The position numbers were made by a program, and so were the translations under genes. 64,000 nt of DNA from Pseudomonadota bacterium (GTDB lineage: Bacteria; Pseudomonadota; Gammaproteobacteria; Pseudomonadales; Moraxellaceae), in the NCBI GenBank assembly GCA_040384385.1, contig JAZKJJ010000007.1, positions 38,707 through 102,706 of the forward strand. Reading direction: 5' to 3'. Below the pieces are notes generated by a model. That model was not told where the DNA came from and did no database searches. It saw nothing but the letters and a program-made list of their open reading frames with translations. Position 1 is the stretch's first letter. Every line of letters begins with the position of its first letter. Positions 29,688 to 52,032 of the stretch are shown here, piece by piece.

Positions 29688-29755
29688 TCCCGGGTCATTT
29701 CGATAAAGGCGAAGCGACCGGCATGACTCGCCGGTCGTCGATTCCTTGAAATTCT

Positions 29756-29815
29756 AGTGAACGAGTGTTGACTTAAAAAAGTTACATGCGTACTCTGAGT
29801 GTGTAGTCGTTCACT
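29756..29815. promoter_or_regulatory. Two inverted DesT/FabR-like operator sites
   Basis: AGTGAACGAGTGTTGACT (29756-29773) and AGTGTGTAGTCGTTCACT (29798-29815) upstream of the desaturase operon. Confidence 0.65.
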
Positions 29816-29827
29816 TGGAGACGCAAA

Positions 29828-30922: not shown

Positions 30923-30952
30923 GATCTCTTAAGTAGAGTCTGGAGAAATATC

Positions 30953-32071: not shown

Positions 32072-32094
32072 GACGGTACGCGGAGGAGATGGCC

Positions 32095-34025: not shown

Positions 34026-34028
34026 GCT

Positions 34029-34882: not shown

Positions 34883-34922
34883 TCTTCAACATTACAAGAA
34901 CTATTGAAATAAAGGAAGGGCC

Positions 34923-35591
34923 ATGAGCTGGGAACTCACCCGATGTGATGATGGCGTGCTGCGTTGTGGCTGGTGCACGGCCACGCCGGCGTATCAGCAG
35001 TATCACGATCAGGAGTGGGGGAGGCCGACCGCCGATGATCGCCGCCTGTTCGAGAAGCTCTGTCTGGAGAGCTTTCAGGCTGGTCTGAGCTGGCGCACGA
35101 TCTTGGAAAAGCGCACCAACTTGCGTGCGGCCTTTCATCAGTTCGACTGGGTCGCCATGGCCGCGATGGGCTCGCAGGATGTTGAGCGCCTGCTGCAGGA
35201 TGCCGGCATCATTCGCCATCGCGGCAAAATCGAGGCGGTGCTCAACAATGCTGGGCGCATGCCCGACATGCTCGCCGAGTTCGGTTCGCTGGGGGCCTTT
35301 GTCTGGTCGTTTGAGGCGCTGATGCCGGCACAGCCGGAGATCGTCACGCTTGCGCATGTCTGCGCCAACACCACCAGCCCGGCGTCCGATGCTATGGCGA
35401 AGGCGCTGAAGCAGCGTGGCTGGAAGTTTCTTGGCAGCACCACCATTCATGCTTTTATGCAGTCGATGGGGCTGGTCAATGATCATCTCAGCGGTTGTGC
35501 CTCGCGTGATCCGGCGTTGCTGGCGCGTGATGCGTTCATCGTTCCGTCATCAGCGGCCGTTAACATGGCACGCGTAAAAAATCTGAATTGA
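34923..35591 (+). CDS. tag: DNA-3-methyladenine glycosylase I
   Basis: RCGW, YHDQEWG, LCLESFQAGLSW, IIRHRGKI, GLVNDHLSGC. Confidence 0.93.
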   Translation: MSWELTRCDDGVLRCGWCTATPAYQQYHDQEWGRPTADDRRLFEKLCLESFQAGLSWRTILEKRTNLRAAFHQFDWVAMAAMGSQDVERLLQDAGIIRHRGKIEAVLNNAGRMPDMLAEFGSLGAFVWSFEALMPAQPEIVTLAHVCANTTSPASDAMAKALKQRGWKFLGSTTIHAFMQSMGLVNDHLSGCASRDPALLARDAFIVPSSAAVNMARVKNLN

Positions 35592-35607
35592 GTCGGGAGA
35601 GTTTGCC

Positions 35608-36954: not shown

Positions 36955-37355
36955 GCCTCTTTTGCCAGGCCGCTGGTCACCCGGATCGGGTTGCTCAGCA
37001 GCTTGTGCACCGGGCAGATCTTGGCAATCTGCAACAGGCGCTCGCGAGCTTCGGCATCGAGCGCCCCCTCCAGCGTGATGATGCGTGTGATATCGCTGCC
37101 GTCCGCCGCGACCACCATGTCGAGATGTACCTGCACGCTGGTCAATGGCCAGTCTTTGCGCTGTGCATACATGATCAGCGTGATCGCGGTACACGCGCCC
37201 AGCGACGACAGCAGCAGCTCCATCGGTGCCGGTGCGCTGTCGCCGCCGCCAACATCGGCGGGCTCGTCAGCGAGCCAGTGATGGGCGCCATCGCTGAGAC
37301 TGACCTGATAAGGCGTGCCGGCGATGCTGGCGGTGACGGTGTGTATTGTGCTCAT
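36951..37355 (-). CDS. OsmC-family protein
   Basis: ADEP..GG.D..PAP, SLGACTAIT, ICPVHK. Confidence 0.88.
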   Translation of the reverse strand: MSTIHTVTASIAGTPYQVSLSDGAHHWLADEPADVGGGDSAPAPMELLLSSLGACTAITLIMYAQRKDWPLTSVQVHLDMVVAADGSDITRIITLEGALDAEARERLLQIAKICPVHKLLSNPIRVTSGLAKEA

Positions 37356-37469
37356 GGAGGTGCTCTCTTTGTGGAATTCTGCCGCATGGCTCTTTGCTTG
37401 CTTGTACCTGCTCACAAGCTCGCGTACAACCGAGGTCTCGTTTTTTCACTGTTAGCCCCGGAGTAAGCT

Positions 37470-38351
37470 ATGGCCTACAACACTCTTGATTATCGTGTCG
37501 AAGATCGCATTCTCACGCTGACACTGAATCGTCCTGAGCAGCTCAATGCCTTTACGGTCGAGATGGCCGATGAGCTGGTCGCCGCCTTCGGGCGCGCCAG
37601 CGAGGATGATGATGTTGCGGTGATCGTGGTCACCGGCAGCGGTCGTGCCTTCTGCGCCGGCATGGACCTGTCGGTGCCGGGCAATGTCTTCGGTCTCGAC
37701 GAGACGCAGCAGCCGACTGTAGCCGACATGCACGAACGCCTCGATGATCCGGCCATTCATCGCGGTGTGCGCGATACCGGTGGCCGCGTGACGCTGGCCA
37801 TCTACGAATGCAAGAAGCCGGTTATTGGTGCCATCAACGGCGCGGCGGTGGGCATCGGTGCCACCATGACGCTGGCGATGGACATTCGCCTAGCCTCGGA
37901 GAAGGCGCGTATCGGCTTCGTTTTCGGCAAGATCGGCGTGGTGCCGGAAGCTTGCTCAAGCTGGTTCTTGCCGCGCATCGTTGGCATTCAGCAGGCGCTG
38001 GAGTGGGTCTACACCGGTGACATCCTGACCGCCGAGCAGGCGCTGGCCGGCAAGCTGGTGCGTTCGGTGCATGCGCCGGATCAGTTGCTGCCGGCTGCCT
38101 ACGAGCTGGCGCGCAAGTTTAGCCAGAACAAATCACCGGTGGCCGTCGCCTTCGCGCGCCAAATGCTTTATCGCAATTCTGCGCAGCCGCACCCGATCGA
38201 AGCGCATCGCATTGATACGCTGGCGATGTTCTATACCAGTCTGGAAGATGGCAAGGAAGGCGTCAGCTCATTCCTGGAAAAACGCGATCCGGCGTATACC
38301 GGCAAAGCTAGTGCCATGCCGGCGTTTTATCCGTGGTGGAACAAGGCTTGA
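37470..38351 (+). CDS. Enoyl-CoA hydratase/isomerase family protein
   Basis: LNRPEQLNA, AFCAGMDL, AINGAAVGIG, PEACSSWFLP. Confidence 0.92.
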   Translation: MAYNTLDYRVEDRILTLTLNRPEQLNAFTVEMADELVAAFGRASEDDDVAVIVVTGSGRAFCAGMDLSVPGNVFGLDETQQPTVADMHERLDDPAIHRGVRDTGGRVTLAIYECKKPVIGAINGAAVGIGATMTLAMDIRLASEKARIGFVFGKIGVVPEACSSWFLPRIVGIQQALEWVYTGDILTAEQALAGKLVRSVHAPDQLLPAAYELARKFSQNKSPVAVAFARQMLYRNSAQPHPIEAHRIDTLAMFYTSLEDGKEGVSSFLEKRDPAYTGKASAMPAFYPWWNKA

Positions 38352-41115: not shown

Positions 41116-41943
41116 TCAGACGCCGTGATCCTTGAGCCAGTCTCGCGCCAGCTTCCAGGCATAGTCGGCGGCAGCCTTGTCATAAGTCGGACGGTAGTCG
41201 GCATTGAAGCCATGGTTCAGGCCGGGGAACACCACGATGTCTGAGCCCGAGCCCGACTTTTGCAGCTCGGCGCGCATCTGATCAACCACCGTGTCGGGAA
41301 TGAAACTGTCTGTGCCGGCATACAGCCCCAGCACGGGCACCTTCAGGGTAGCGGCCATGTCAATCGGGTCTTTCGGTTTGATCTCGGACTTCAGCCCGCT
41401 AAGGAGTCCGTAATAAGCCACGCCGGCCTTCACCGCCGGATTGTGCTGACTGTAAAGCCAGACCATACGCCCGCCGTAGCAGAACCCCACCGTACCGAGC
41501 TTGCGTGTATCGGCATGGCCTGATGCCTTGGCGAAGGCGATGCTGGCATCAATGTCGGCAAAGACCTGGGCATCCGGCACTTTTGAGACTACCTGCGACA
41601 GAATGTCTCCGATATCAGTCATCTTCGAAACATCGCCCTGGCGGGCAAAAAGTTCTGGCGCGATGGCGTAGTAACCGAGCTTGGCAAGGCGGCGGCAGAC
41701 ATCTTTGATGTGCTCGTGCACCCCGAAAATTTCCTGAATCACCACAATCGTCGGGTGCTTGCCGGGCTTTGCTGGCATGGCGCGATAGGCCGGCATGCGG
41801 CCATCTGCTACCGGTACGCTGACTTCGCTAGCGATTAGGCCGCGCGTGCTAGTGGTGATGGCCTGTGCCAGTAGCGGCGACGATGCCAGGGCAAAGCCGC
41901 TGGCCAGCGAGCTCACAATAAATTCACGACGATTGAGTTGCAT
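41116..41943 (-). CDS. Dienelactone hydrolase family protein, Tat signal
   Basis: RREFI Tat motif; QEIFG, GFCYG, HGF triad. Confidence 0.9.
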   Translation of the reverse strand: MQLNRREFIVSSLASGFALASSPLLAQAITTSTRGLIASEVSVPVADGRMPAYRAMPAKPGKHPTIVVIQEIFGVHEHIKDVCRRLAKLGYYAIAPELFARQGDVSKMTDIGDILSQVVSKVPDAQVFADIDASIAFAKASGHADTRKLGTVGFCYGGRMVWLYSQHNPAVKAGVAYYGLLSGLKSEIKPKDPIDMAATLKVPVLGLYAGTDSFIPDTVVDQMRAELQKSGSGSDIVVFPGLNHGFNADYRPTYDKAAADYAWKLARDWLKDHGV

Positions 41944-42084
41944 GTGTGTGCTCCCGATTTAAGTACTGATGAAACTAGGGAGAAGCGCGGTGAAAAACAA
42001 CTACACGCGGCGAGCATTTTCATGGCTTGCACCCGTTCGCTTATTTGTTAGAGTCAGTCACCAAAAATAACCCAGCAAGCTGCC

Positions 42085-42471
42085 ATGAATCTTCGTCTTG
42101 TATTTTTTCTCGTGTTGTCACTGGCGTCACTGTCTGGGCTCTGGTGGCTGTGGCCCAAGCCTGCCCAACCCGTGGCTGCCGCCGATACTCCCATGGCTAG
42201 CCCGGGCTATCTCATTCACTGGCGGGTTCGGGCTGGCCAGCGCGTACAGGGGCCGGAAAAATTTGCCGTGCGTGTAGGCGATATGGTGACGCTGGAAGTC
42301 GCCTCTGACCGTAACGATGTGCTGCATATCCATGGCGATGACTTGAAGGTGCCGCTGCTCGCCGACAAAAGCATCCGCATTGACTGGACGCCCGTTCACA
42401 GTGGTCGTTTTGACATGGAGCTGCACGACGCGGGCTTGACGCTGACGCAGGTCGATGTACTGCCGCGCTGA
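42085..42471 (+). CDS. Membrane-anchored cupredoxin-like hypothetical protein
   Basis: N-terminal hydrophobic helix; beta-strand pattern VRVGDMVTLEV..LHIHG..GRFDMELH; no Cys. Confidence 0.65.
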   Translation: MNLRLVFFLVLSLASLSGLWWLWPKPAQPVAAADTPMASPGYLIHWRVRAGQRVQGPEKFAVRVGDMVTLEVASDRNDVLHIHGDDLKVPLLADKSIRIDWTPVHSGRFDMELHDAGLTLTQVDVLPR

Positions 42472-42510
42472 GCGTCTTAGCATCCCCTAATTTTTTCTGG
42501 AGCAGCGCGT

Positions 42511-43350
42511 ATGTCCGCTCAATACACGATTTTGATCACCGGCTGTTCGACCGGCATTGGCCATGCCTTGGCGAAGACGCTGCACGCTCGCGGGCAGCGC
42601 GTCATTGCCACCGCACGCAAGCTCGAAAGCCTGCAGGATCTAACGGCGCTGGGTATCGTCACGCGTTTTCTGGATGTTAACGATGTGGCCTCGCGCCAGG
42701 CGTTGGTCGACGAACTGTCGCTCTTGCAGCTGACGCCGAACATGCTCATCAACAATGCCGGCTATGGTGCCATGGGGCCTCTGGCCGAGATGCCATTCGC
42801 TACGCTGGCCGCGCAATTCGAGACCAATGTACTGTCCTTAATGGCGATGACGCAGGCCGTGATTCCCGGCATGGTGGCGCAAAAGCGTGGCCGTATCGTC
42901 AATCTCGGCTCAGTCTCGGGCGTGCTCACCACGCCGTTTGCCGGTGCCTACTGTGCCACCAAAGCCGCTGTGCATGCTCTCTCGGATGCCCTGCGCATGG
43001 AGCTGGCACCCTTCGGCATCGATGTCATCATTGTGCAGCCTGGCGGTATTCAGTCGGAGTTTGGTGCCACCGCCAGTCGTGATGTGCAAGCCCGCCAGGC
43101 CGGGCTCTCGCTCTATGCGCCACTGGCCGATGCCATCGCTAAGCGCGCTGGTGCATCGCAGCAACAAGCTACATCGGTGCAGGATTTTGTCGATGCCATG
43201 AGCGATGCCATCTTGGCGCCGACAGCCGAGCCGGTGGTGCGCTTGGGCCATGGCAGCACGCTGTTGCCGATGGTGCAGCGCTGGTTGCCGGTGCGTCTGC
43301 GTGACCGTATCTTGAGCAGGCGTTTCGGCCTCGCGCAATGGCGTCCCTGA
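42511..43350 (+). CDS. Short-chain dehydrogenase/reductase
   Basis: TGCSTGIG, NNAGYG, YCATK, QPGG. Confidence 0.92.
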   Translation: MSAQYTILITGCSTGIGHALAKTLHARGQRVIATARKLESLQDLTALGIVTRFLDVNDVASRQALVDELSLLQLTPNMLINNAGYGAMGPLAEMPFATLAAQFETNVLSLMAMTQAVIPGMVAQKRGRIVNLGSVSGVLTTPFAGAYCATKAAVHALSDALRMELAPFGIDVIIVQPGGIQSEFGATASRDVQARQAGLSLYAPLADAIAKRAGASQQQATSVQDFVDAMSDAILAPTAEPVVRLGHGSTLLPMVQRWLPVRLRDRILSRRFGLAQWRP

Positions 43351-44780
43351 GGTACTGGCCGCAACGCGCGTTACTACTTCTGCCGGCATTTCCCGGCAGT
43401 GCCAGCGCGCATTCCTTCGGTCAGCTTTATAACCTGCCGGTACCGCTGTGGATGTATCTCTACGGTGCCGCTGCTGCCTTGCTGGCCTCTTTTGTGCTGA
43501 TCGCGGTCTTTCTGGTGCCGGCACAAACGGTAAGGTCAGCAAATGTCGCCCGCCAATCCGAGCCGGGCTGGTTTTCACTCCTTGCTCGGTACACTCGCCC
43601 ACTGCTGCGTATCCTCAGCGTGTTGCTGTTGCTGTTGTGTATGGCTACCGGTTTCTGGGGCACGGCAAACCCGTATCTGAACTTCAACATGACCTTCTTC
43701 TGGATCATGTTCGTGCTTCTTTTCACCTACCTCACGGCATTCGTGGGCGATGTCTTCCGCTTTATCAGCCCGTGGCGAGTGCTCAGCGACGCCTTGCCAT
43801 CACGCTGGCGCCAAGGCTTTTTCGTGTACCCCAAGCGCCTCGCTTACTGGCCCGCGCTGCTGCTCTATATCGGCTTCATTAGCCTTGAGCTGTTTGGCAA
43901 AATCAATCCGCAAGGCTTGGCCTGGCTGCTCTTCGGCTATACCGTGGCTAATCTTGTTGGTGTTGGCCTGATCGGGCAGCGGGCTTGGTTTCGCCATGTC
44001 GAATTCTTCGCCGTGTTTCTGCGTCTGGTGGCGATGATGGCGCCGCTGAGCTGGTATCAGGGCAGGGCGCACTGGCGTATGCCGGGTAGCGGCCTAGTCG
44101 GGCAGCGCGCGGAAAGTTACAGCCTCGTGCTCTTCATTCTCTTCATGCTGGCCTCCACCGCGTTTGACGGCCTACGCGGCACGGTGGTCTGGGTTAATGT
44201 TTTCTGGGCCGATACCTTCAACGTCCTGACGCCTTTTTTGGGCAAGCCGCCAGTCTATTTCTATCTCCAGCTCAGACCGTGGTACACCGTTTATGAGGTG
44301 AGCTGGCTGTGGCTGTCGCCGCTGATCTACTTCACGGTGTTCGGCTTTTTTGTAGCCTGGGCCGCGCGTCTGGCCGGCACGAAACTGCCTGTGCGTGAAT
44401 GGCTGCTGCGCTCGGCGTTCTCGCTATTGCCCATCGCGCTGGTCTATCACATTACGCACTACTACACGCTGATCCTGACTCAAGGCGTGAAGATCGTGAG
44501 CATGCTCTCGGACCCGTTTGGCTACGGTTGGGATCTTTTCGGGACAGCGGGTGGGTGGCGTTCGGCCATTCTGCCGGACATGAATTGGGTCTGGCACAGC
44601 CAGGTGGCGTTGATTGTTTTCGGGCACATCGCCAGCGTCTATCTGGCACATCACGAGGCGATGCAGTTGGCAGTATCACCGCGTCGTGCGGTGTTAAGTC
44701 AGCTGCCCATGCTTGCACTGATGATGGCCTTCACCGCCTCCGGACTGTGGATTCTGGCCCAGCCCATCAGCGGTGGCTAA
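43338..44780 (+). CDS. Polytopic membrane protein of unknown function, predicted mature N-terminal His
   Basis: Signal peptide ending SASA|H; many hydrophobic segments; His in late helices (YHITHY, FGHIASVYLAHH). Confidence 0.78.
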   Translation: MASLRYWPQRALLLLPAFPGSASAHSFGQLYNLPVPLWMYLYGAAAALLASFVLIAVFLVPAQTVRSANVARQSEPGWFSLLARYTRPLLRILSVLLLLLCMATGFWGTANPYLNFNMTFFWIMFVLLFTYLTAFVGDVFRFISPWRVLSDALPSRWRQGFFVYPKRLAYWPALLLYIGFISLELFGKINPQGLAWLLFGYTVANLVGVGLIGQRAWFRHVEFFAVFLRLVAMMAPLSWYQGRAHWRMPGSGLVGQRAESYSLVLFILFMLASTAFDGLRGTVVWVNVFWADTFNVLTPFLGKPPVYFYLQLRPWYTVYEVSWLWLSPLIYFTVFGFFVAWAARLAGTKLPVREWLLRSAFSLLPIALVYHITHYYTLILTQGVKIVSMLSDPFGYGWDLFGTAGGWRSAILPDMNWVWHSQVALIVFGHIASVYLAHHEAMQLAVSPRRAVLSQLPMLALMMAFTASGLWILAQPISGG

Positions 44781-44786
44781 GCGAAT

Positions 44787-46247
44787 TTACTTGTCTGCCC
44801 AGGCCCCGTTGGTAACACGCACAGCATAGAAGCCGCTGAAGCCGTCGGTGTACCAGATCTCCTTGCGCTCGGGCACGAAGCTCGGGCTCGACATGGCCCA
44901 ATTGCTTTCTTCCGGAAAGTTGCGCGGGCTGGTCGGGGGATTGAAGTAGGCGATCTCGCGCGGATGGAAGGGGTCGCGAATATCAAATACACGCAGGCCG
45001 GAGATGATCATGCTGCAAGCCACGATGGTCGGATCGACGCGCGTCGGCACATTGCAGTAATGCCCACCATAACCCTGCACTGGCAGATTGGCGCCCGGAT
45101 CACCGTCACGCACGGCCTTGTTTTCGGGTTGATGCACTTCCAGACGCAAATTCGAAATCACCTTTGGCTTGGTTTCGTCACTGATGTCGATGATGCGACC
45201 GGCCCCAATGTTGCCGGCACCGCTGGGCGAAGTGGTGGAGTCGGTGTACTCGTCGATTTCCACCAGATACGGCTTGCCCTTGATAGTGATGGGAATGGCG
45301 TTCTGCGGAATACTGATCGAAGGCCAAGTCACGCGTGAAATTTCACGCACAGTTGGCTTGGGCTTGCGTGCCTGAATTTCCGAGACATCCAGGATCACCA
45401 TGCCAGAGGCGTTTTCGGGGCCGGAGCTGCCTGGCATGTTGCCGCCACCGCCAGCAATATAGGCACGGTTGCCATCAGCACTGATGGATAGCCCGTGCGA
45501 CTTGAGCGGGATGGTCATGATCGGCACCGGCACTGATAGGTTGGTCAGATCGATGGCCGTTAGCGTCGGCGTGCCGGGCGATGCCGAGTAGAACGTCTTG
45601 CCATCCGGCGAGAAGCCGCTTTCGTGCCCGAGCACGCCCACCGGCGCTACCGACTTCAACACGGGGTGACGGCAGTCGCCGGAAATGTCGTAAACATCGA
45701 CCACGCCGGGGCCGAAGGCCGGGTTGCCGAGAACGGCAGCGAGCACACCGCGCTCCTTACTCAACACCAGCGACTCATGCGGCGACAGCATGGCCGGCGT
45801 GAGCAGCTGGGCGGTCAATACTGGCTGGGTGGGGTCGCTCATGTCGAGCACGTTGACGCCGCCCTGAGCATCAATCAGATTGGTCGGAAACAGCAGTGTG
45901 GTGTCGTAATACGCGCAGTCATGGCCAGCTGCATCGGTATAGCGTTCGACCTTGAAGCCGCCCACAGTGCCGAAATTATTCTGCTTGCTGTACGAGCCGA
46001 TCATCTCGGTGTTGCAGGTAAAGCCCTCGCGGGTGCGGCCGCTGGTCAGGTCTTCGCGACTGACACGACCCTGGATGCCGGTCTCTGGGCGTGAGCCGGG
46101 GCCACAGGTGGCGCGTGGCGTTGGCTGAGGCACTTCCGAGGCGCTGGCGGGTGGTTTGCTGGTGCTGTTGTTGCTGCCCGATGAGCAGGCGCTGATCAGC
46201 ACGGCCAAGGTTAGTAAGCTGATCGTGCGCAAAATGGGGAGGGGCAT
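44787..46247 (-). CDS. LVIVD-repeat beta-propeller lipoprotein
   Basis: Lipobox ISAC; repeats VNVLDMSDP, VDVYDISGD, LTAIDLTN, MVILDVSE, RIIDISDE, LRVFDIRDP. Confidence 0.82.
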   Translation of the reverse strand: MPLPILRTISLLTLAVLISACSSGSNNSTSKPPASASEVPQPTPRATCGPGSRPETGIQGRVSREDLTSGRTREGFTCNTEMIGSYSKQNNFGTVGGFKVERYTDAAGHDCAYYDTTLLFPTNLIDAQGGVNVLDMSDPTQPVLTAQLLTPAMLSPHESLVLSKERGVLAAVLGNPAFGPGVVDVYDISGDCRHPVLKSVAPVGVLGHESGFSPDGKTFYSASPGTPTLTAIDLTNLSVPVPIMTIPLKSHGLSISADGNRAYIAGGGGNMPGSSGPENASGMVILDVSEIQARKPKPTVREISRVTWPSISIPQNAIPITIKGKPYLVEIDEYTDSTTSPSGAGNIGAGRIIDISDETKPKVISNLRLEVHQPENKAVRDGDPGANLPVQGYGGHYCNVPTRVDPTIVACSMIISGLRVFDIRDPFHPREIAYFNPPTSPRNFPEESNWAMSSPSFVPERKEIWYTDGFSGFYAVRVTNGAWADK

Positions 46248-46316
46248 GGCGTGCGCTCTTGTTATTTTCGCGCGAGCATCGCAGGCCGAGCAGGGCTTGT
46301 CTAGCCCGGCCTGGCC

Positions 46317-46856
46317 TCAGTTTTTACGCACGGGCAACATGCGTCGCAAGGTGTTGTCCTTGTTGAAATAGTGATGCCAGAGCGCGGCACCAGCATGGAT
46401 GCCGATTAGCACGATCAGCACTTCCGCCAGGTCCTCGTGCCATTCCTTGATGATTTTTGCCAGCGGCATGTCTGTTGGCGCAATGCTGGGCAATTCAAAC
46501 AGGAAGAACCAGGAAATCGGCTTGCCAGCGGCACTGCTCATCCACCAGCCGAGGCAGGGGATTACCAGCAGCAAGCCGTAGAAAGCGACATGCACAGCTT
46601 TCGCCGCCATTTGCGTGGCGCGCGATTCGCCTTCCGGTGCTGGGCGCTTCAGGGGCAGCGTAAAGATCATGCGCAGCACCATCACTGCCAGCACCGTAAT
46701 GCCGAAGGACTTGTGCAGCATGACCAAATTGCGCTGTAGCTCCTTGTCAGTCAGGTCATCGGCCAGCCAGACCAGGGTGACGGCACTAAGTACCAGTGCC
46801 ACCACCAGCCAATGGAAGAAAACGATCAGCGCGGGGTAGCGCACAGGACGGGTCAT
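46317..46856 (-). CDS. Cytochrome b561 (YceJ/CybB-like)
   Basis: FFHWL, LHKSFG, VHVAFY, WHE, IHAGAALWHH heme-His pattern. Confidence 0.9.
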   Translation of the reverse strand: MTRPVRYPALIVFFHWLVVALVLSAVTLVWLADDLTDKELQRNLVMLHKSFGITVLAVMVLRMIFTLPLKRPAPEGESRATQMAAKAVHVAFYGLLLVIPCLGWWMSSAAGKPISWFFLFELPSIAPTDMPLAKIIKEWHEDLAEVLIVLIGIHAGAALWHHYFNKDNTLRRMLPVRKN

Positions 46857-46874
46857 GGTCTGGCTCCTCTGTCA

Positions 46875-48857
46875 CTAAGGCGTGACGATATTAAAGCTGC
46901 CGTTGGGCTGTTCGAAGAGTGTGAAGAAGCGCACCAGATCCACACGGCTGCCTTCCACCTTGAGATCGTCCGAGAGTAGCGTGTCGTTGATGCCAGCCTT
47001 GCCAGTGATCATCTTGAGATAGATCGCGTGCGTCAACTTCAGCGTGGCATCGGCCTTGGGGTCATTGCCAGCACGATGATGCAGGACCGAATTCTTCAGG
47101 TGCAGCACATAGCTTTCCTTCAGATCGGTGAATACGAAGTTGATGGTGTACTCCTTGCCCTCGGCCTTGTCGGCCTTCAGGCGTGCGGCCATGGCATCCA
47201 TGAAGCGCGGCATCGGCGTGCTGCGCAAGAGCTCGATGGTGCTGCTCATGTCCAGAACCTGCTTCGGTGTGCCGTGGCGCAGCTCGTAAGCGCCGGTCAG
47301 ATAGGCATCGCGCCAAGGTGCCGATTCGGCCTGATAGCCAAGCTGGTCGTAGGTTTTCGCCAGCAAGGCTTTCGCGGCCGCATTGCCCGGCTCGGCAAAG
47401 ACCAGATGATTCAGCACTTCGGCGGCCCAGCGATACTCGCCATCGTCATAGGTTTTCTGCGCCTTCTCCAGCACGGCATCGGCACCGCCCATAAACTCCA
47501 CATACTTCTTGCCGGCATTCTCTGGCGGCAGCGGGTTCAAGTTGGCCGGGTTGGCGTCATACCAGCCGAAGTAGAACTGATACACGGCCTTGGTGTTGTG
47601 TGCCACGGTGCCGTAATAGCCACGGCTGGAGAAGACCTTGTTCAGGCTCGGCGGCAGCTTGACCTGCTCGGCAATCTCGCGCGAGGTGAAGCCTTGCAGC
47701 GCCAGATGCAATGTTTGGTCGTGGATGTACTTGAAGGTATCGCGCTGCGACTCCAGCAGTGCCTGCACGCGCTCTTTGCCCCAGACCGGCCACTGATGGC
47801 TGCCGACATAGACTTCGGCATCGCCAAACAGACTCAGCGCTTCGTCCAAGTAGCCGCTCCACTTCAGCGCATCACGCACCTTGGCGCCGCGCAAGGTATA
47901 GAGGTTATGCAGCGTATGCGATGCCAGCTCGGCGCCCAAAAAGGCTTTCAGCTCCGGCAGGTAGAAAGTCATTTCCGCCGGGGCTTCCGATGCCGGCGTG
48001 TTCTGGAAGACAAAGCGCAGGCCATCAATATCAAGCTCTTGACCGGTACGCGTGATCAGCTCGGTCGGTGCCATGATGCCGACGGTGCCATAGGCCGGGG
48101 CCTTGCCCAGGCCGGTATCAATATGGCCGCGTGGCGTGTGTGCCAAGCTTTTGCCGTACATGAACATGGAGCGGCGCAGCATGGTTACGCCGGCCAGCAC
48201 ATTCTCACTGGTGGCCTCTTCCATGAAGCCATCAGGCGCGATGATGCGCAGCTTCTGCTGGCGCGCCTGCTCGGCACTGACAATGCCGAGAATGCCGCCA
48301 AAGTGGTCGACATGGCTGTGCGTGAAAATCACCGCGACGATAGGCTTCGTGCCCAGATGCTCGCGCGCAAAGGCAATGGCGCGTGCGGCAGTCTCCTGCG
48401 CCGTCAGCGGATCAACAATGATCCAACCGGTGCGGCCCTCGATGATCGTCATGTTGGACAGGTCATAGCCGCGCAGCTGATAAATGCCATCTCTGACCTT
48501 GAACAGACCGTGGATGTTGTTCAGCTGCGCCTGCCGCCACAGGCTCGGATTCACGCTGTCGGGAGCAGCACCCTTGAGAAAGTCGTAGCTAGGCATGTCC
48601 CAAACGGTGCTGCTGCCATCTTCGGTGGTGCGCAGGATCTTCAGCATCGGATCGCGGGCGATGAGGCCACGCTCGGCGTCGGCAAAGTCCTGGCGATCAT
48701 TGAAGTCGAGCTCGGTGAGCATCTTGGCATTGGCATCACGGGTGGCTGCGGTGGCGGCGCTATGGCCTTGGGCATCAGCACCGGCTTCGTGGGGTGCCTG
48801 GCCGCAGGCGGCGAGGGCGGAGCAGAGCGCCAATGCAAGTAGTCGTGAAGTGTTCAT
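46875..48857 (-). CDS. Alkyl/aryl sulfatase (SdsA1/BDS1-like), lipoprotein
   Basis: LAACG lipobox; THSHVDHFGG metallo-beta-lactamase motif; HNLYTLRGA; C-terminal SCP2-like domain. Confidence 0.92.
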   Translation of the reverse strand: MNTSRLLALALCSALAACGQAPHEAGADAQGHSAATAATRDANAKMLTELDFNDRQDFADAERGLIARDPMLKILRTTEDGSSTVWDMPSYDFLKGAAPDSVNPSLWRQAQLNNIHGLFKVRDGIYQLRGYDLSNMTIIEGRTGWIIVDPLTAQETAARAIAFAREHLGTKPIVAVIFTHSHVDHFGGILGIVSAEQARQQKLRIIAPDGFMEEATSENVLAGVTMLRRSMFMYGKSLAHTPRGHIDTGLGKAPAYGTVGIMAPTELITRTGQELDIDGLRFVFQNTPASEAPAEMTFYLPELKAFLGAELASHTLHNLYTLRGAKVRDALKWSGYLDEALSLFGDAEVYVGSHQWPVWGKERVQALLESQRDTFKYIHDQTLHLALQGFTSREIAEQVKLPPSLNKVFSSRGYYGTVAHNTKAVYQFYFGWYDANPANLNPLPPENAGKKYVEFMGGADAVLEKAQKTYDDGEYRWAAEVLNHLVFAEPGNAAAKALLAKTYDQLGYQAESAPWRDAYLTGAYELRHGTPKQVLDMSSTIELLRSTPMPRFMDAMAARLKADKAEGKEYTINFVFTDLKESYVLHLKNSVLHHRAGNDPKADATLKLTHAIYLKMITGKAGINDTLLSDDLKVEGSRVDLVRFFTLFEQPNGSFNIVTP

Positions 48858-49365: not shown

Positions 49366-49495
49366 AGAGCAAGCCTAGTGTGCGCCGACTGCCAGCGCTT
49401 GTCACTAAGGCATGCGTCATCAAGTGTGTGCCCTTGCCGTAGACTGCGTGGTCATTTACTGTTCGCGCAGTCAAAAATAACGAGAGATGCCAACG

Positions 49496-52018
49496 ATGCG
49501 TCCAACGAGTCCACTCAAATTTGCCGCACTGAGCTTGGTGCTGGCCCTCACGGCTTGTGGTTTCGGTAGCGACAGCTCGTCATCTGGTTCGGGCGCCCCG
49601 CGTGTTGGCAGCTACGATGCTCGCATCGTGCGTACGCAAATGGGCATCCCGCATATCACCGCCAACGATTTTGGCAGCCTCGGCTACGGTCAGGCCTATG
49701 CCTTCGCCGAAGACAATCTCTGCGTCATGATGGAAGATTTCGTCACCAGCCGTGGCGAGCGCGCCCGCTATTTTGGGGCCGATGGCAGCTATCGCATCGA
49801 GCCTAATGGCTCCGTGGCCGACAATGTCTCCAGTGACTTTTTCTGGAAATTCATGCTCGACGATGCCGCCTGGCAGCGCACGCGCAACAAGACCGAGCCG
49901 CAGTTCCGCGAGCTCGTGACCGGCTATGTCGCCGGCTTCAATCGATACATCGCCGAGCTCAAGGCGGGTCAGCATCCCGGCCGTCATGCCGCCTGCGCCA
50001 AGGGTGACTGGCTGCAGCCGATTGTCGATGCCGATATGTATCGTCGCTTTGTGCGGCTTTCGATTCTGGCCAGCAGCTCGGTCTTTGTCAGCGAGATCGC
50101 CAATGCCCAGCCGCCGGCTATCCCGCCAAGCGCCAGTGCTGCGCGCAGCAATGCCAAGCCAGCTCAACGTCTAGCCTCGCTGAATGCAAGAAAGCTAGCG
50201 TTGGCTCAGGCTCCCGGCCCGTTTGCCGATCTGCAGCAGAAGGATCACTTCGGCAGCAATATGTACGCCATCGGCAAGAACGGCAGCGCCAGCGGCCAGC
50301 CGATTGTTTTTGGTAATCCGCATTTCCCGTGGCGCGGCACCGAGCGCCTCTATATTTCGCATAACACCATCCCTGGCAAGCTCGACATCATGGGCTCGTC
50401 GCTCTATGGCGTGCCGGCAGTGCTGATCGGCTTCAATGACAAAGTGGCGTGGAGCCACACGGTGTCCACGGCATACCGCTTCACGCTGTATGAGCTGAAA
50501 GTGAATCCGGCGAATCCGACGCAGTATTTTTACGAAGGTGGCCTGCGTGACATGACTGCCGTGCCGCTGAAGGTGCAGGTCAAGCAGGCAGATGGCAGCT
50601 TGCAGGAGATGACGCGCACGCTCTACAAAAGCCATTTCGGCCCAATGATCACGCTGTCTGCCTCGGGCGTGCCTATCCTGCCGTGGGCGAACGGCCTGGC
50701 GTATACCCTGCGCGATGCCAATTACGAAAACGACCGTCTGATCAATCAGTTCGGGCGCTGGAATACCGCGAAGAGCCTCGACGAATTCATCAGCCTGCAC
50801 AAATCGATTCTGGGCGTGCCCTGGGTCAACACCGTGGCCAGCGGCCCCAATGGCCGCGCCTATTATGGCGATGTCACCGTAGTGCCGAATGTCACCGATG
50901 CCCAGGTCACCAGTTGCAGTACATCACCCCTGGTGCCGGTGATCGGTCAAGTCGCACCCGGCTTGCCGTTGCTCGATGGCTCGCGTGCCGCTTGCGAGTG
51001 GAACACCGATGCCGATGCGCCAGCACCGGGCATCTTCGGCGGCAAAAACTTGCCCACGCTGGTGCGCGACGACTATGTGCATAACTGCAACGACAGCTAC
51101 TGGCTGACCAATCCGAAGGCACCGATCACCGGCTTCAATCGCATCATCGGCGATGAGGGCACGGAGCGTTCACTGCGCACTCGCCTGTGCATTCTGCAGG
51201 CCGAGCGTCGCCTTGCCGGTACGGACGGTCGCTCCGGAAACATGTTCACGATTCCGGCGTTGCAAGACATCGTGCTGTCCAGCCAGATCTACTCGGTCGA
51301 GCTTGCCCGTAAGCAGGTGCTCGATAGCTTGTGCACGCAGCCTGGCTTGATCGGCAGTGCTGGCCCGGTGGCTGCAGCCGATCAAGCGGCAGCCTGCGCG
51401 GTACTGACGAAGTGGGATGGCAAGGACAGTCTGACCTCGGTGGGTGGTCATGTCTGGCGCGAATTCTTCCGTCGCGTAGTCGGCAATCCAGGCGGGTTGC
51501 CCGTGGGTTTGCCGGCCACGCCGCTGACCGGCATCTGGCAGAATGCCTTTTCGGCCAGCGATCCAGTGAATACGCCAAACACCCTCAACACCAAAACGCT
51601 GCAGGTGCAGCAGGCCTTTGCCGATGGCATTGCGGCGGTTAAAGCGAGCGGCATTCCGTTCGACCGTCCGCTGGGTCAGATTCAGTATTCCGGCGTGCAG
51701 AAAAAATCACGCATTCCGATCTTCGGCGGCGAGGGCAGTGAGGGTGCGTTCACGATTGTCTCTACCCAAGGCGAGAACCTCACTAAAGATGGCTACGGCA
51801 TTGTTTATGGCAACAGCTATATTCAGACGGTAACTTGGGATGCCAAAGGTCAACCACAAGCCGAGGGATTCATTACCTACTCGCAATCTACGGATCCCGC
51901 CAATCCGCACTTTGATGATTTCACTAAAGCATACAGTCAGAAGCAGTGGCAGAAGTTTCCTTTCAGCGCTGCTGACATCAGCCAGCAAAAAATTTCCGAA
52001 TTACGTTTGCAGCAATAA
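49496..52018 (+). CDS. Ntn-hydrolase acylase (PvdQ/QuiP/penicillin acylase family), lipoprotein
   Basis: LTACG lipobox; GIPHI, G-SNMYAIG nucleophile Ser, NPHFPW, NCNDSYWL. Confidence 0.9.
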   Translation: MRPTSPLKFAALSLVLALTACGFGSDSSSSGSGAPRVGSYDARIVRTQMGIPHITANDFGSLGYGQAYAFAEDNLCVMMEDFVTSRGERARYFGADGSYRIEPNGSVADNVSSDFFWKFMLDDAAWQRTRNKTEPQFRELVTGYVAGFNRYIAELKAGQHPGRHAACAKGDWLQPIVDADMYRRFVRLSILASSSVFVSEIANAQPPAIPPSASAARSNAKPAQRLASLNARKLALAQAPGPFADLQQKDHFGSNMYAIGKNGSASGQPIVFGNPHFPWRGTERLYISHNTIPGKLDIMGSSLYGVPAVLIGFNDKVAWSHTVSTAYRFTLYELKVNPANPTQYFYEGGLRDMTAVPLKVQVKQADGSLQEMTRTLYKSHFGPMITLSASGVPILPWANGLAYTLRDANYENDRLINQFGRWNTAKSLDEFISLHKSILGVPWVNTVASGPNGRAYYGDVTVVPNVTDAQVTSCSTSPLVPVIGQVAPGLPLLDGSRAACEWNTDADAPAPGIFGGKNLPTLVRDDYVHNCNDSYWLTNPKAPITGFNRIIGDEGTERSLRTRLCILQAERRLAGTDGRSGNMFTIPALQDIVLSSQIYSVELARKQVLDSLCTQPGLIGSAGPVAAADQAAACAVLTKWDGKDSLTSVGGHVWREFFRRVVGNPGGLPVGLPATPLTGIWQNAFSASDPVNTPNTLNTKTLQVQQAFADGIAAVKASGIPFDRPLGQIQYSGVQKKSRIPIFGGEGSEGAFTIVSTQGENLTKDGYGIVYGNSYIQTVTWDAKGQPQAEGFITYSQSTDPANPHFDDFTKAYSQKQWQKFPFSAADISQQKISELRLQQ

Positions 52019-52032
52019 CTCGAGAACCTGAT

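What the first reader, a model, noticed from the sequence alone, without database searches (positions are those of the whole stretch)
42085..46247. Candidate undescribed periplasmic metal (copper) module: cupredoxin-like protein, N-terminal-His membrane protein and His-lined LVIVD propeller
Seen: (1) an anchored cupredoxin-like protein with HIH and ELH but no type 1 Cys; (2) a polytopic membrane protein whose signal peptide (SASA|H) would expose His1, plus intramembrane His (YHITHY, GHIASVYLAHH); (3) a convergent lipoprotein propeller, ending 6 nt away, with His at similar blade positions (PHESL, GHESG, SHGLS, GGHYC) and several Cys. Known: mature His1 is the copper-binding brace of CopC, YcnI, PmoB and LPMOs, and some propeller enzymes such as methanethiol oxidase are copper-dependent and need maturation partners. 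Inference: the first two capture or deliver metal for the propeller enzyme. I know of no characterised function for this set.
Basis: partly seen in the sequence, partly recalled or inferred. Interest (0 to 1): 0.72.

Follow-up and report, generated by a model that had tools for sequence, protein, structure and literature searches.

The report
Cupredoxin, His1 membrane protein, phosphotriesterase-like propeller
A tethered cupredoxin-like protein and a membrane protein with an exposed first histidine form a widespread, uncharacterised, probably metal-handling gene pair that here lies beside a lipoprotein of the phosphotriesterase-type propeller family (the FedA/FedB pairing), so copper catalysis in the propeller is unlikely.

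Summary
All three proteins are present as described.

- **Protein 1 (42085-42471)** is a membrane-tethered cupredoxin-fold protein. H81, H83, E112 and H114 are invariant and it has no Cys.
- **Protein 2 (43338-44780)** belongs to a large family with no Pfam or PDB relative (about 4,900 clusters). Sources name some members "fenitrothion hydrolase FedB". The His after the A-x-A cleavage motif is present in 140 of 141 relatives. E184, D277, H374, H430 and H438 are also near-invariant.
- **Protein 3 (44787-46247, minus strand)** is a lipoprotein homologous to the binuclear-manganese phosphotriesterase Sb-PTE (E = 2.6e-20). It keeps five of six metal ligands. A Ralstonia relative is named "FedA".

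Proteins 1 and 2 are a conserved cassette found from Gammaproteobacteria to mycobacteria. The propeller is a facultative neighbour (about 13 of 83 loci). More often the neighbour is an M19-like lipoprotein, and sometimes a GDSL or tannase-type hydrolase.

The cassette probably handles metal, as shown by a Cu/Zn-SOD fusion and by mycobacterial copper-island and archaeal P19/ATPase contexts. Copper catalysis in the propeller is not supported.

Verdict: observation confirmed, interpretation partly supported, function unproven.

The parts
42085..42471 (+). cup128: a membrane-tethered cupredoxin-fold protein of 128 aa. It has an N-terminal TM helix (aa 3-22), a variable linker, and a beta-sandwich of about 85 aa.
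   Evidence: ORF. AF2 pLDDT 92.7. Foldseek matches to Cupredoxin_1, CupA, FtrB, EfeO and CuA domains. PDB profile hit to a CuA domain at E = 1.3e-6. Pfam Cupredoxin_1 hits 14 of 22 relatives, but not the window protein itself.
42325..42426 (+). Putative metal site of cup128: H81 (42325-42327), H83 (42331-42333), E112 (42418-42420) and H114 (42424-42426). The residues lie at the ends of beta-strands 4 and 7, where cupredoxins bind copper. There is no Cys or Met ligand.
   Evidence: These residues are invariant in 22 relatives with 21-69% identity, including mycobacterial lipoprotein versions. Codons checked. The site geometry is inferred from fold homology and was not measured.
42511..43350 (+). 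Cytoplasmic short-chain dehydrogenase/reductase, 279 aa, with no signal peptide. It lies between cup128 and the membrane protein, and its stop overlaps the next start codon.
   Evidence: Pfam adh_short E = 6.9e-43 and NCBIfam PRK05693 at 324 bits. It is absent from this position in L001-L004 and L084. In Perlucidibaca and Paraperlucidibaca the order is cup-SDR-742aa-mem (L065, L071).
43338..44780 (+). mem480: a polytopic inner-membrane protein of 480 aa with about 10 TM helices, FedB-like. The family has no Pfam model and no solved relative.
   Evidence: More than 1,700 homologues. 4,924 clusters at 50% identity with E <= 1e-3. No Pfam, NCBIfam or PDB hit, even with a profile. AF2 pTM 0.80, with no Foldseek PDB match (best E = 0.069). 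33.6% identical over 99% of its length to the Ralstonia protein named "putative fenitrothion hydrolase protein FedB".
43338..43412 (+). Signal peptide (aa 1-24, ending A-S-A) and the predicted mature N-terminal His25 (43410-43412).
   Evidence: Among the window protein and 150 representatives, position 24 is A in 130, and position 25 is H in 140 of the 141 sequences that have an N-terminus. Cleavage is predicted from the motif and has not been shown.
43887..44651 (+). Conserved polar residues of mem480: E184 (43887-43889), D277 (44166-44168), H374 (44457-44459), D392 (44511-44513), H430 (44625-44627) and H438 (44649-44651). By my topology reading, E184, D277 and H374 lie near the periplasmic face, and H430 and H438 lie deeper in TM9.
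   Evidence: Conservation is 144-150 of about 150 for each residue. Codons checked. The topology is inferred from the AF2 helices and the positive-inside rule. It is supported by a C-terminal periplasmic SodC fusion in P0381.
44787..46247 (-). Lipoprotein propeller of 486 aa from the Sb-PTE / HAD / "FedA" family. It is convergent with mem480, with 6 nt between the two stop codons.
   Evidence: phmmer against PDB hits 5HRM and 5IOJ (haloalkylphosphorus hydrolase) at E = 2.6e-20 over aa 45-478. The lipobox is LISA|C21 (46185-46187). The Ralstonia homologue is named "putative fenitrothion hydrolase protein FedA". More than 6,300 homologues.
45060..45776 (-). Predicted hub metal site of the propeller: E158 (45774-45776), H208 (45624-45626), H251 (45495-45497), E333 (45249-45251) and H396 (45060-45062). 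Q315 (45303-45305) replaces the sixth Sb-PTE ligand. H157, E209, D332 and C398 are additional conserved residues of this subfamily.
   Evidence: A MAFFT alignment with the 5IOJ sequence and 19 relatives maps these residues onto Sb-PTE E201, H258, H317, E407 and H475, with H389 replaced by Gln. Codons checked. The ligand numbering is recalled from Mabanglo et al. 2016; all six recalled positions fall on E or H in the 5IOJ chain.
46317..48857 (-). Context on the propeller's strand, upstream of it: an alkyl sulfatase (46875-48857) and a cytochrome b561 (46317-46856). The gaps are 18 and 69 nt, so the three genes may form one transcription unit.
   Evidence: Pfam Alkyl_sulf_dimr E = 6.4e-63 and Ni_hydr_CYTB E = 2.4e-29. 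Close relatives keep the sulfatase and vary in the b561 and propeller genes. Co-transcription was not tested.

Best explanation
The region contains two units.

Unit 1 is the operon cup128-SDR-mem480 on the + strand. Its core is a conserved two-gene cassette. One partner is a membrane-tethered cupredoxin-fold protein with an invariant His-x-His...Glu-x-His site. The other is a 10-TM protein whose signal-peptide cleavage exposes an invariant His1. That protein also carries near-invariant Glu, Asp and His residues near the periplasmic face and two His residues deeper in TM9.

I propose that the cassette is a metal-relay device. The tethered cupredoxin domain binds a metal ion at its His3Glu site and exchanges it with the His1 site of the membrane protein. 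The membrane protein moves or holds the ion at the membrane surface. The cassette thereby serves exported enzymes encoded beside it.

Unit 2 is the convergent lipoprotein. It is a seven-bladed propeller hydrolase of the Sb-PTE/FedA family with a carboxylate-bridged binuclear site. That site most probably binds Mn, Zn or a similar divalent ion, not copper. In this genome the propeller is the candidate client of the cassette, equivalent to the FedA/FedB pairing. It probably hydrolyses an ester, such as a phospho-ester, on a hydrophobic substrate.

Shown: the folds, homologies, residue conservation and gene linkage. Inferred: metal binding, the direction of transfer, the identity of the metal, and the client relationship.
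For: Cassette linkage:
- cup128 lies directly upstream of mem480 in 35 of 80 species-representative loci.
- The same pairing occurs in mycobacterial plasmids, where the genes overlap.

Metal-binding signatures:
- cup128 has a cupredoxin fold with invariant H81, H83, E112 and H114.
- Its nearest structural analogues are non-redox metal handlers: CupA (also TM-anchored), FtrB, the EfeO Cup domain, and Cupredoxin_1 crystallised with Cu or Zn.
- In mem480, H25 is present in 140 of 141 sequences, and E184, D277, H374, H430 and H438 are near-invariant.

Metal contexts of relatives:
- M. gallinarum: CopC, a metal-sensitive regulator, DUF1326, DUF302 and oxidase-assembly genes.
- Haloarchaea: P-type ATPase and P19-type Fe/Cu proteins.
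- P0381 is a mem480 core fused to a C-terminal Cu/Zn-SOD domain (E = 6.6e-34).

Client link:
- A propeller lies within 4 kb of mem480 in 13 of 83 loci. Several are on the same strand with gaps under 70 nt (L010, L030, L032 twice, L066, L068, L081).
- The convergent arrangement seen in the window is kept in L003 and L084.
- The Ralstonia genes are named FedA and FedB.
- An M19-like, HxH-bearing lipoprotein lies in the same operon in about 49 of 83 loci.

Propeller site: five of six Sb-PTE ligands are kept.
Against: - No metal binding has been measured for any of the three proteins.
- The propeller is convergent, so it is not co-transcribed with the cassette. It is absent from the closest relatives L001 and L002.
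- In L004 the same slot holds a GDSL/SGNH lipoprotein. Elsewhere tannase-type serine hydrolases sit next to mem480. These enzymes need no catalytic metal.
- Sb-PTE orthologues on Sphingobium plasmids have no mem480 neighbour. From my own recollection, Sb-PTE was produced active in E. coli without such a partner.
- A cytoplasmic SDR inside the operon, and the lipid- and ester-metabolism genes across the window, fit a catabolic role better than metal homeostasis. The window contains no copper genes.
- I could not read the model coordinates, so the clustering of H25, E184, D277 and H374 is unverified.
Confidence: 0.38

Rival explanations
1. The cassette is a self-contained metal uptake or resistance system. 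It would be analogous to FtrB/FtrC, EfeO/EfeU or CopC/CopD, with mem480 acting as the permease. The propeller next to it in this window would be an unrelated neighbour.
For: The closest relatives L001 and L002 keep cup-mem but lack the propeller. The orientation is convergent. Structural analogues of cup128 are FtrB, EfeO and CupA. The archaeal and mycobacterial contexts are transport or resistance genes. The family has about 4,900 clusters, many of them solitary.
Against: Within the clade of the window, most loci place an exported hydrolase gene in the same operon or slot: about 49 M19-like, 13 propeller, 5 DUF6351, plus GDSL. The FedA/FedB naming and the same-strand pairs with gaps under 70 nt also argue against it. 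mem480 has no FTR1 or CopD signature.
Confidence: 0.22
2. mem480 (FedB-like) is a catabolic component rather than a metal handler. It would be either a transporter or a membrane-embedded enzyme acting on hydrophobic esters or their products. These would be released by whichever exported hydrolase sits beside it, and the SDR would process the product in the cytoplasm.
For: The neighbouring hydrolases are interchangeable: propeller, GDSL, tannase-like and M19-like. An SDR sits in the operon here and in L065 and L071. Fatty-acid desaturase, AraC, FadD and OmpW genes lie nearby elsewhere. The window is rich in lipid and ester hydrolases. The host clades (Nevskiales, Zhongshania, Spongiibacter, Marinobacter, Perlucidibaca) are, by my own knowledge and not tested here, commonly described as hydrocarbon or lipid degraders.
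Against: This model does not explain the invariant His1 and the His/Glu/Asp set, the obligate cupredoxin partner, the SodC fusion or the copper-island contexts. The products of such different hydrolases are unlikely to share one transporter.
Confidence: 0.17
3. The cassette is itself a copper oxidase or monooxygenase. A composite site would be built from His1 of mem480 and the HxH of the cupredoxin domain, echoing the PmoB CuB site and the intramembrane PmoC site. It would oxidise hydrophobic substrates, and the SDR would oxidise the resulting alcohol.
For: The His1 plus HxH-in-cupredoxin arrangement resembles the PmoB ligand set (my recollection of pMMO). Conserved intramembrane His, Asp and Glu residues are present. 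An SDR lies in the operon. AlkB-like FA_desaturase genes neighbour relatives.
Against: There is no sequence or fold similarity to PmoA, PmoB or PmoC. No reductase partner is conserved. The resemblance comes from memory and was not tested.
Confidence: 0.1
4. One reading: the propeller is a copper-dependent enzyme, like methanethiol oxidase, and is matured with copper by the other two proteins.
For: The hub of the propeller is lined with His. There are very weak local PDB hits to the tricopper enzyme thiocyanate dehydrogenase (E about 0.23, aa 152-220). The cassette has copper-flavoured contexts elsewhere.
Against: The full-length homology is to Sb-PTE. The same bridging Glu and terminal Glu and His ligands of a binuclear Mn site are retained. 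No methanethiol oxidase hit was found. Carboxylate-rich sites are atypical for catalytic copper.
Confidence: 0.06

Closest known systems
Sb-PTE / haloalkylphosphorus hydrolase (HAD) of Sphingobium sp. TCM1 (PDB 5HRM, 5IOJ)
   Same: It is homologous to the window propeller over almost the whole length (E = 2.6e-20, aa 45-478). Both are exported seven-bladed propellers. Five of the six binuclear-site ligands are conserved: E158, H208, H251, E333 and H396.
   Different: Identity is only about 25%. Sb-PTE H389 is replaced by a conserved Gln (PQN motif). The window subfamily has extra conserved H157, E209, D332 and C398. The window protein is a lipoprotein. Sb-PTE orthologues have no FedB-like neighbour. 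Neither the substrate nor the metal is known here.
FedA/FedB, the fenitrothion hydrolase genes of Burkholderia sp. NF100 plasmid pNF1, known here only through names transferred to Ralstonia syzygii R24 and mycobacterial proteins
   Same: The Ralstonia propeller homologue is called FedA (34.5% identity to the window propeller). The Ralstonia mem480 homologue is called FedB (33.6% identity over 99%). They lie in one same-strand cluster. The window holds the same two families side by side.
   Different: The window genes are convergent rather than co-directional, and they come with a cupredoxin-like gene and an SDR. The Ralstonia cluster instead has a DUF6765 gene between the pair. The original papers were not available, so the role of FedB and the true NF100 sequences were not checked.
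CupA of Streptococcus pneumoniae (PDB 4F2E) and B. anthracis Cupredoxin_1 (4HCF, 4HCG)
   Same: cup128 has the same architecture as CupA, an N-terminal TM anchor followed by a cupredoxin-like domain. These are among the top Foldseek matches (E about 1e-5, TM 0.55-0.58 on the query). They are non-redox metal-binding cupredoxin folds.
   Different: Sequence identity is 12-16%. cup128 has a His3Glu motif rather than the Cys/Met Cu(I) ligands I recall for CupA. Its partner is a FedB-like protein, not a P-type ATPase.
FtrABCD and EfeUOB metal uptake systems (FtrB 8VUK; EfeO 7WGU; P19/FtrA, Pfam PF10634)
   Same: The cupredoxin-like periplasmic component resembles cup128 in fold. Haloarchaeal mem480 homologues sit next to P19-type proteins. 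One sits next to a Dyp peroxidase, which recalls EfeB.
   Different: mem480 is not an FTR1/EfeU permease. It has no Pfam hit and no REXXE-type signature was detected. The bacterial loci carry no P19 or polyferredoxin gene.
Histidine-brace proteins (CopC, YcnI, PmoB, LPMOs)
   Same: A His is predicted to become residue 1 after signal-peptide cleavage, and it is near-invariant.
   Different: The known brace proteins are soluble or tethered beta-sandwich domains. mem480 is an all-helical polytopic membrane protein with no detectable homology to them. No second brace ligand has been identified.

Membership tests
Sb-PTE / HAD / FedA-type propeller phosphotriesterases | Full-length sequence homology to the solved enzyme | tested here: met
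   phmmer against PDB: 5IOJ and 5HRM at E = 2.6e-20, query aa 45-478.
Sb-PTE / HAD / FedA-type propeller phosphotriesterases | Bridging Glu-201 and beta-metal ligands His-258 and His-317 | tested here: met
   E158, H208 and H251 align with these residues and are conserved in all 21 aligned sequences. The ligand list is recalled from Mabanglo et al. 2016. All recalled positions fall on E or H in the chain.
Sb-PTE / HAD / FedA-type propeller phosphotriesterases | Alpha-metal ligands His-389, Glu-407 and His-475 | tested here: inconclusive
   E333 and H396 are conserved. H389 is replaced by Q315, which is conserved as PQN in this subfamily; His is kept only in L068 and the Sphingobium enzymes.
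Sb-PTE / HAD / FedA-type propeller phosphotriesterases | Metal-dependent phosphotriesterase activity | not testable with these tools
   This needs an enzyme assay.
FedB-like membrane proteins (unnamed family) | Full-length homology to proteins that sources name FedB or fenitrothion hydrolase | tested here: met
   33.6% identity over 99% of the length to the Ralstonia syzygii protein named FedB. Mycobacterial homologues are named "fenitrothion hydrolase" in UniRef.
FedB-like membrane proteins (unnamed family) | Adjacency to a FedA-like propeller gene | tested here: met
   The propeller is convergent and 6 nt away in the window. The pairing is facultative across the family, at 13 of 83 loci.
Cupredoxin fold (Pfam Cupredoxin_1, PF13473) | Greek-key beta-sandwich of cupredoxin topology | tested here: met
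   AF2 pLDDT 92.7. Foldseek gives probability 1.00 for Cupredoxin_1, CuA, nitrosocyanin and multicopper oxidase domains. PDB profile hit at E = 1.3e-6.
Cupredoxin fold (Pfam Cupredoxin_1, PF13473) | Match to the Pfam model | tested here: inconclusive
   The window protein has no hit at E <= 0.01. 14 of 22 relatives hit Cupredoxin_1, with a best E of only 4e-4.
Type 1 (blue) copper proteins | Cys-His-His(-Met) ligand set | tested here: not met
   The protein has no Cys. The C-terminal ligand loop is replaced by E112-L-H114.
Histidine-brace copper proteins (CopC, YcnI, PmoB, LPMO) | His as residue 1 of the mature protein | tested here: inconclusive
   A-x-A|H is conserved in 140 of 141 sequences, but cleavage is only predicted.
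Histidine-brace copper proteins (CopC, YcnI, PmoB, LPMO) | Beta-sandwich domain that supplies the second His ligand; homology to a known brace family | tested here: not met
   mem480 is all-helical and polytopic. It has no Pfam, PDB or Foldseek relative.
Methanethiol oxidase / SELENBP1-type copper propellers | Sequence homology | tested here: not met
   No such chain appears among PDB hits at E <= 1. The only copper propeller hits are thiocyanate dehydrogenase, at E about 0.23 over 69 residues.
FTR1/EfeU or CopD permeases | Match to the family models | tested here: not met
   There are no Pfam or NCBIfam hits for mem480 or for 13 diverse relatives at E <= 1.

The most novel reading that the evidence does not exclude
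mem480 may define a new class of membrane-embedded metalloprotein whose signal-peptide-exposed His1 forms a brace-type site. Working with a dedicated tethered cupredoxin that carries a His3Glu site, it would act in one of two ways. It could be a general periplasmic metal insertase for exported enzymes such as propeller phosphotriesterases, M19-like hydrolases and Cu/Zn-SOD. Alternatively, through a composite His1 + HxH site, it could be a previously unrecognised membrane copper oxidase.
Probability: 0.25. Interest if true: 0.85.

Novelty: new variant of a known kind. Interest (0 to 1): 0.6.

Why it matters
How exported enzymes obtain the correct metal in the periplasm is largely unsolved outside a few copper cases such as Sco/PCuAC, NosL and CueP.

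This locus involves a large membrane-protein family of about 4,900 clusters, found from Proteobacteria to Actinobacteria and haloarchaea. It has no Pfam model and no solved relative. It has a near-invariant exposed His1 and a dedicated cupredoxin partner, and it is repeatedly wired to exported hydrolases. That makes it a concrete and testable candidate for such a system.

The result also gives a possible role to FedB, the unexplained second gene of the fenitrothion hydrolase locus. It enlarges the Sb-PTE phosphotriesterase family, which is of bioremediation interest, with a lipoprotein subfamily that has an altered metal site.

If the catabolic rival explanation is right instead, the family would be a new membrane component of ester degradation.

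Tried and rejected
- **Family scans.** Pfam and NCBIfam scans of the three proteins gave only a sub-threshold LVIVD hit and a weak choice-of-anchor hit.
- **mem480 profile searches.** Profile searches against Pfam and PDB, and Foldseek of its AF2 model, found nothing. Model coordinates are not exposed, so His-His distances could not be measured.
- **Literature.** The Sb-PTE structure paper, Abe et al. 2014, two Bigley et al. papers, and anything on FedA or FedB were not held. Other papers only cite them. The ligand list and the FedAB story therefore rest partly on memory and on database names.
- **Promoter and terminator scan of 41800-46500.** It gave no promoter and no more terminators than shuffled sequence.
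- **Sequencing runs.** Only DNA metagenomes (freshwater, groundwater, watershed) hold the locus, so no transcript evidence was available.
- **Methanethiol oxidase analogy.** Rejected because no homology was found.
- **Di-haem cytochrome b reading of mem480.** Considered because of the conserved TM His residues. H374, H430 and H438 do not show the paired 13-14-residue spacing that, by my recollection, is typical of cytochrome b, and H420 is not conserved. This reading is not excluded.
- **P0347 C-terminal domain.** Whether it is a fused cup128-like domain remains inconclusive (hhalign probability 28%).
- **Paralogues in the window.** A search for paralogues of the three proteins, or of the 742-aa, DUF6351, GDSL or desaturase partners, elsewhere in the window found none by tblastn.

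Full report
**What is in the sequence**

The interval holds four genes, not three.
- 42085-42471 (+) encodes a 128-aa protein, here called cup128.
- 42511-43350 (+) encodes a 279-aa short-chain dehydrogenase. Pfam adh_short gives E = 6.9e-43 and NCBIfam PRK05693 gives 324 bits.
- 43338-44780 (+) encodes a 480-aa polytopic membrane protein, here called mem480. Its start overlaps the SDR stop.
- 44787-46247 (-) encodes a 486-aa lipoprotein. Its stop lies 6 nt from the mem480 stop.

None of the three proteins of interest reaches a Pfam or NCBIfam threshold. Only a weak LVIVD hit (E = 0.0034) is seen for the propeller.

On the propeller's strand, an alkyl sulfatase and a cytochrome b561 lie directly upstream with gaps of 18 and 69 nt. 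The wider window is rich in lipid and ester metabolism genes. These include a patatin-like phospholipase, a ferredoxin reductase plus fatty-acid desaturase, a PGAP1-like hydrolase, a PhoX-like protein, an enoyl-CoA hydratase, a dienelactone hydrolase, a penicillin amidase and an aldehyde dehydrogenase. There are no copper homeostasis genes. The closest relatives are Moraxellaceae MAGs (Perlucidibaca and Paraperlucidibaca) from fresh water and groundwater.

**The propeller**

A sequence search of the PDB finds the haloalkylphosphorus hydrolase of Sphingobium sp. TCM1 (Sb-PTE; 5HRM, 5IOJ) at E = 2.6e-20 over residues 45-478.

As I recall from Mabanglo et al. 2016, which was not available here, Sb-PTE is a seven-bladed propeller with a binuclear Mn centre. 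Glu-201 bridges the two metals. His-389, His-475 and Glu-407 bind one metal, and His-258 and His-317 bind the other. All six recalled numbers fall on Glu or His in the 5IOJ chain, which supports the recollection.

In a 21-sequence alignment, the window protein has E158, H208, H251, E333 and H396 at five of these positions. A conserved Gln (Q315, PQN motif) replaces His-389. The subfamily also conserves H157, E209, D332 and C398.

The observation of a His-lined propeller is correct. However, the site is a carboxylate-bridged hydrolase site, not a copper site. No methanethiol oxidase similarity was found. The only copper-propeller hits are thiocyanate dehydrogenase at E about 0.23 over 69 residues. 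The family is very large, with more than 6,300 hits.

**cup128**

Only 16 close homologues were found by word search. An HMM built over fetched loci, plus the mycobacterial proteins, gave a 22-member alignment at 21-69% identity.
- H81, H83, G107, E112 and H114 are invariant.
- The N-terminus is a conserved TM anchor in Proteobacteria and a lipoprotein signal in mycobacteria.
- 14 of 22 members weakly hit Pfam Cupredoxin_1 and 9 hit Cu-oxidase_2.
- The profile finds the CuA domain of ba3 oxidase (E = 1.3e-6), nitrosocyanin and two-domain laccases.
- The AF2 model (pLDDT 92.7) matches B. anthracis Cupredoxin_1 crystallised with Cu or Zn, the TM-anchored copper chaperone CupA, FtrB, the EfeO Cup domain, CuA domains and N2O reductase.

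The four invariant residues sit at the ends of strands 4 and 7. That is where cupredoxins bind copper. This placement is an inference from fold homology.

**mem480**

More than 1,700 homologues were found by word search. A full HMM scan found 4,924 clusters at 50% identity with E <= 1e-3, of which 1,011 have E <= 1e-30. There is no Pfam model and no PDB relative, even with a profile. The AF2 model (pTM 0.80) has no Foldseek match; the best hit has E = 0.069 and TM 0.13.

Conservation across the window protein plus 150 representatives:
- Position 25 is His in 140 of the 141 sequences that have an N-terminus.
- Position 24 is Ala in 130 sequences.
- E184 (147), D277 (150), H374 (147), D392 (144), H430 (147) and H438 (144) are near-invariant.
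- H371, H420 and H439 are not conserved.

Distant members from Ralstonia, mycobacteria, rhizobia, roseobacters and Haladaptatus keep A|H. One Haloferax protein does not.

My reading of the helices together with the positive-inside rule puts both the N- and C-termini in the periplasm. E184, D277 and H374 would lie near the outer face, and H430 and H438 deeper in TM9. A natural fusion supports a periplasmic C-terminus: P0381 carries a C-terminal Cu/Zn superoxide dismutase domain (PF00080, E = 6.6e-34).

**Gene neighbourhoods**

A scan of one genome per species returned 80 loci, from Nevskiales, Spongiibacteraceae, Marinobacter and Moraxellaceae. Further loci came from plasmids and metagenome contigs.

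- **cup128.** It lies directly upstream of mem480 in 35 of the 80 loci. In three more, genes are inserted between the pair. The same pairing, with overlapping genes, occurs on mycobacterial plasmids.
- **The SDR.** In the nearest relatives (L001-L004, L084) no SDR separates the pair. In Perlucidibaca and Paraperlucidibaca the order is cup-SDR-742aa-mem. The SDR is therefore a lineage-specific but recurrent member of the operon.
- **The commonest neighbour.** This is a lipoprotein of about 742 aa, found in 49 of 83 loci and on the same strand upstream in 34. It has invariant HxH, DH, H and D motifs. It gives weak Peptidase_M19 hits (6 of 15 members, best E = 8.6e-4) and beta-trefoil hits. It is absent from the window.
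- **The propeller.** It lies within 4 kb of mem480 in 13 of 83 loci.
  - It is on the same strand with gaps under 70 nt in L010 (cup-prop-mem), L030, L032 (twice), L066 and L068.
  - In Ralstonia L081 it is on the same strand but separated from mem480 by a DUF6765 gene.
  - It is convergent, as in the window, in L003 and L084.
  - It occurs as convergent tandem pairs with a fatty-acid desaturase and an AraC gene in L085-L087. L011 has convergent tandem propellers downstream, with its desaturase gene upstream of mem480. L089 carries two unnamed ORFs of 484 and 496 aa about 4 kb downstream, before an AraC gene, which I did not test for propeller homology.
- **Variation in the propeller slot.**
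  - L001 and L002 (86-87% identical mem480) lack the propeller.
  - In L004 (82% identical) the identical slot, convergent and 6 nt from the mem480 stop, holds a GDSL/SGNH lipoprotein.
  - Elsewhere the adjacent gene is a tannase-type hydrolase (L006, L008, Sagittula) or a GDSL lipase (L086, L087).
- **Propellers without mem480.** These are followed by a DUF305 gene in Paraburkholderia and Tsukamurella. Sb-PTE orthologues have neither partner.
- **Distant mem480 homologues.**
  - In M. gallinarum the gene lies in a copper island with CopC, a metal-sensitive regulator, DUF1326, DUF302, oxidase-assembly genes and TlpA.
  - In haloarchaea it lies beside P-type ATPases and P19-type Fe/Cu proteins, and in one case a Dyp peroxidase.
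  - In two alphaproteobacteria it lies beside xanthine-dehydrogenase-family genes and ABC transporter genes.

**Names**

UniRef calls one mem480 homologue "Fenitrothion hydrolase FedB". In Ralstonia syzygii R24 the propeller is named "putative fenitrothion hydrolase protein FedA" and the membrane protein "...FedB". Mycobacterial homologues are named "fenitrothion hydrolase".

The propeller + mem480 pairing therefore corresponds to the fedA/fedB pair reported from Burkholderia sp. NF100. The papers were not in the library. This link rests on transferred names, and the role of FedB remains unknown to me.

**Interpretation**

The following are shown directly:
- the three folds and homologies;
- the conservation of His1 and the other polar residues;
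- the tight cup128-mem480 linkage across phyla;
- the recurrent but facultative placement of exported hydrolase genes next to the cassette.

Metal binding by the cassette is inferred, with good support. The support comes from the cupredoxin site, the His1/His/Glu/Asp set, the SodC fusion, and the copper and iron contexts.

The link to the propeller is inferred with less support. The most likely model is that the cassette relays a metal ion at the periplasmic face of the membrane and serves the neighbouring exported enzyme. In this genome that enzyme is a FedA/Sb-PTE-type hydrolase whose own site is of the Mn/Zn type.

The main counter-evidence has three parts. Some interchangeable neighbours (GDSL and tannase-type enzymes) need no catalytic metal. 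The propeller is absent from the closest relatives. The operon carries a cytoplasmic SDR in a lipid-metabolism neighbourhood. These points keep three rivals alive:
- a stand-alone metal transporter;
- a catabolic transporter or enzyme;
- a composite His1 + HxH copper oxidase.

**Verdict**

The propeller is a new member of a known family with a variant metal site. The cupredoxin and His1-membrane-protein cassette is a large and essentially uncharacterised system that deserves experimental study.

Noticed in passing
L013:7762-9945 (+), L065:7748-9976 (+), L057:7355-9583 (+) and about 46 other loci; not present in the window: A lipoprotein family of about 742 aa is the commonest neighbour of the cassette (49 of 83 loci; usual order 742aa-cup128-mem480). 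It has no Pfam, NCBIfam or PDB assignment. It has many invariant Cys residues and invariant HxH (H194, H196), D542-H543, H569 and D624. Weak Peptidase_M19 and ricin/fascin beta-trefoil hits suggest a beta-trefoil joined to an amidohydrolase-like metallohydrolase.
   Followed up: partly
P0381 (661 aa, representative): This is a natural fusion of the mem480 core to a C-terminal Cu/Zn superoxide dismutase domain (PF00080, E = 6.6e-34), followed by one more hydrophobic helix. It is a single cluster representative and its N-terminus is truncated. Its genomic origin was not checked.
   Followed up: partly
L004:11447-12823 (-): In a relative with 82% identical mem480, the slot held by the propeller in the window is occupied by a 458-aa GDSL/SGNH lipoprotein. 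The slot is convergent and 6 nt after the mem480 stop. The exported hydrolase next to the cassette has been swapped.
   Followed up: yes
L094:7479-8144 (+) and L096:7430-8176 (+): In Paraburkholderia megapolitana and Tsukamurella tyrosinosolvens plasmids, the propeller homologue is followed directly by a DUF305 protein rather than a FedB-like protein. This may be an alternative partner.
   Followed up: partly
L081:3491-4906 (+): In Ralstonia syzygii, a 471-aa DUF6765 protein lies between "FedA" and "FedB" on the same strand.
   Followed up: no
L099:5149-6219 (-), L100:5022-6089 (-), L083:6159-8807 (+): Haloarchaeal mem480 homologues lie next to P19-type Fe2+ transport proteins (PF10634 + DUF7350) and heavy-metal P-type ATPases. 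The Haloferax protein lacks the N-terminal His.
   Followed up: partly
P0352, P0355, P0345 (689-920 aa): Some family members carry a Cys-rich insert (CxxC...CxxC...CxxC) in a cytoplasmic loop and a C-terminal extension of about 400 aa with no Pfam match. P0342 carries C-terminal TPR repeats.
   Followed up: no
window 46317-48857 (-): An alkyl sulfatase (SdsA-like metallo-beta-lactamase fold) and a cytochrome b561 lie just upstream of the propeller on the same strand, with gaps of 18 and 69 nt. Close relatives keep the sulfatase but vary in the b561 and propeller genes, so this junction gains and loses genes.
   Followed up: partly
window 28257-38351 and 49487-53424: The surrounding window is dense in lipid and ester metabolism genes: a patatin-like phospholipase, a ferredoxin reductase plus fatty-acid desaturase pair, a PGAP1-like hydrolase, a PhoX-like protein, an enoyl-CoA hydratase, a penicillin amidase-family protein and an aldehyde dehydrogenase.
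   Followed up: no
L085:3489-6457, L086:9923-12884, L011:12497-15479: Tandem pairs of propeller paralogues lie convergent to mem480. In L085-L087 they lie together with a fatty-acid-desaturase-family gene and an AraC regulator on that side. In L011 the desaturase gene lies on the other side of mem480. Two loci carry two mem480 copies (L032, L067).
   Followed up: no
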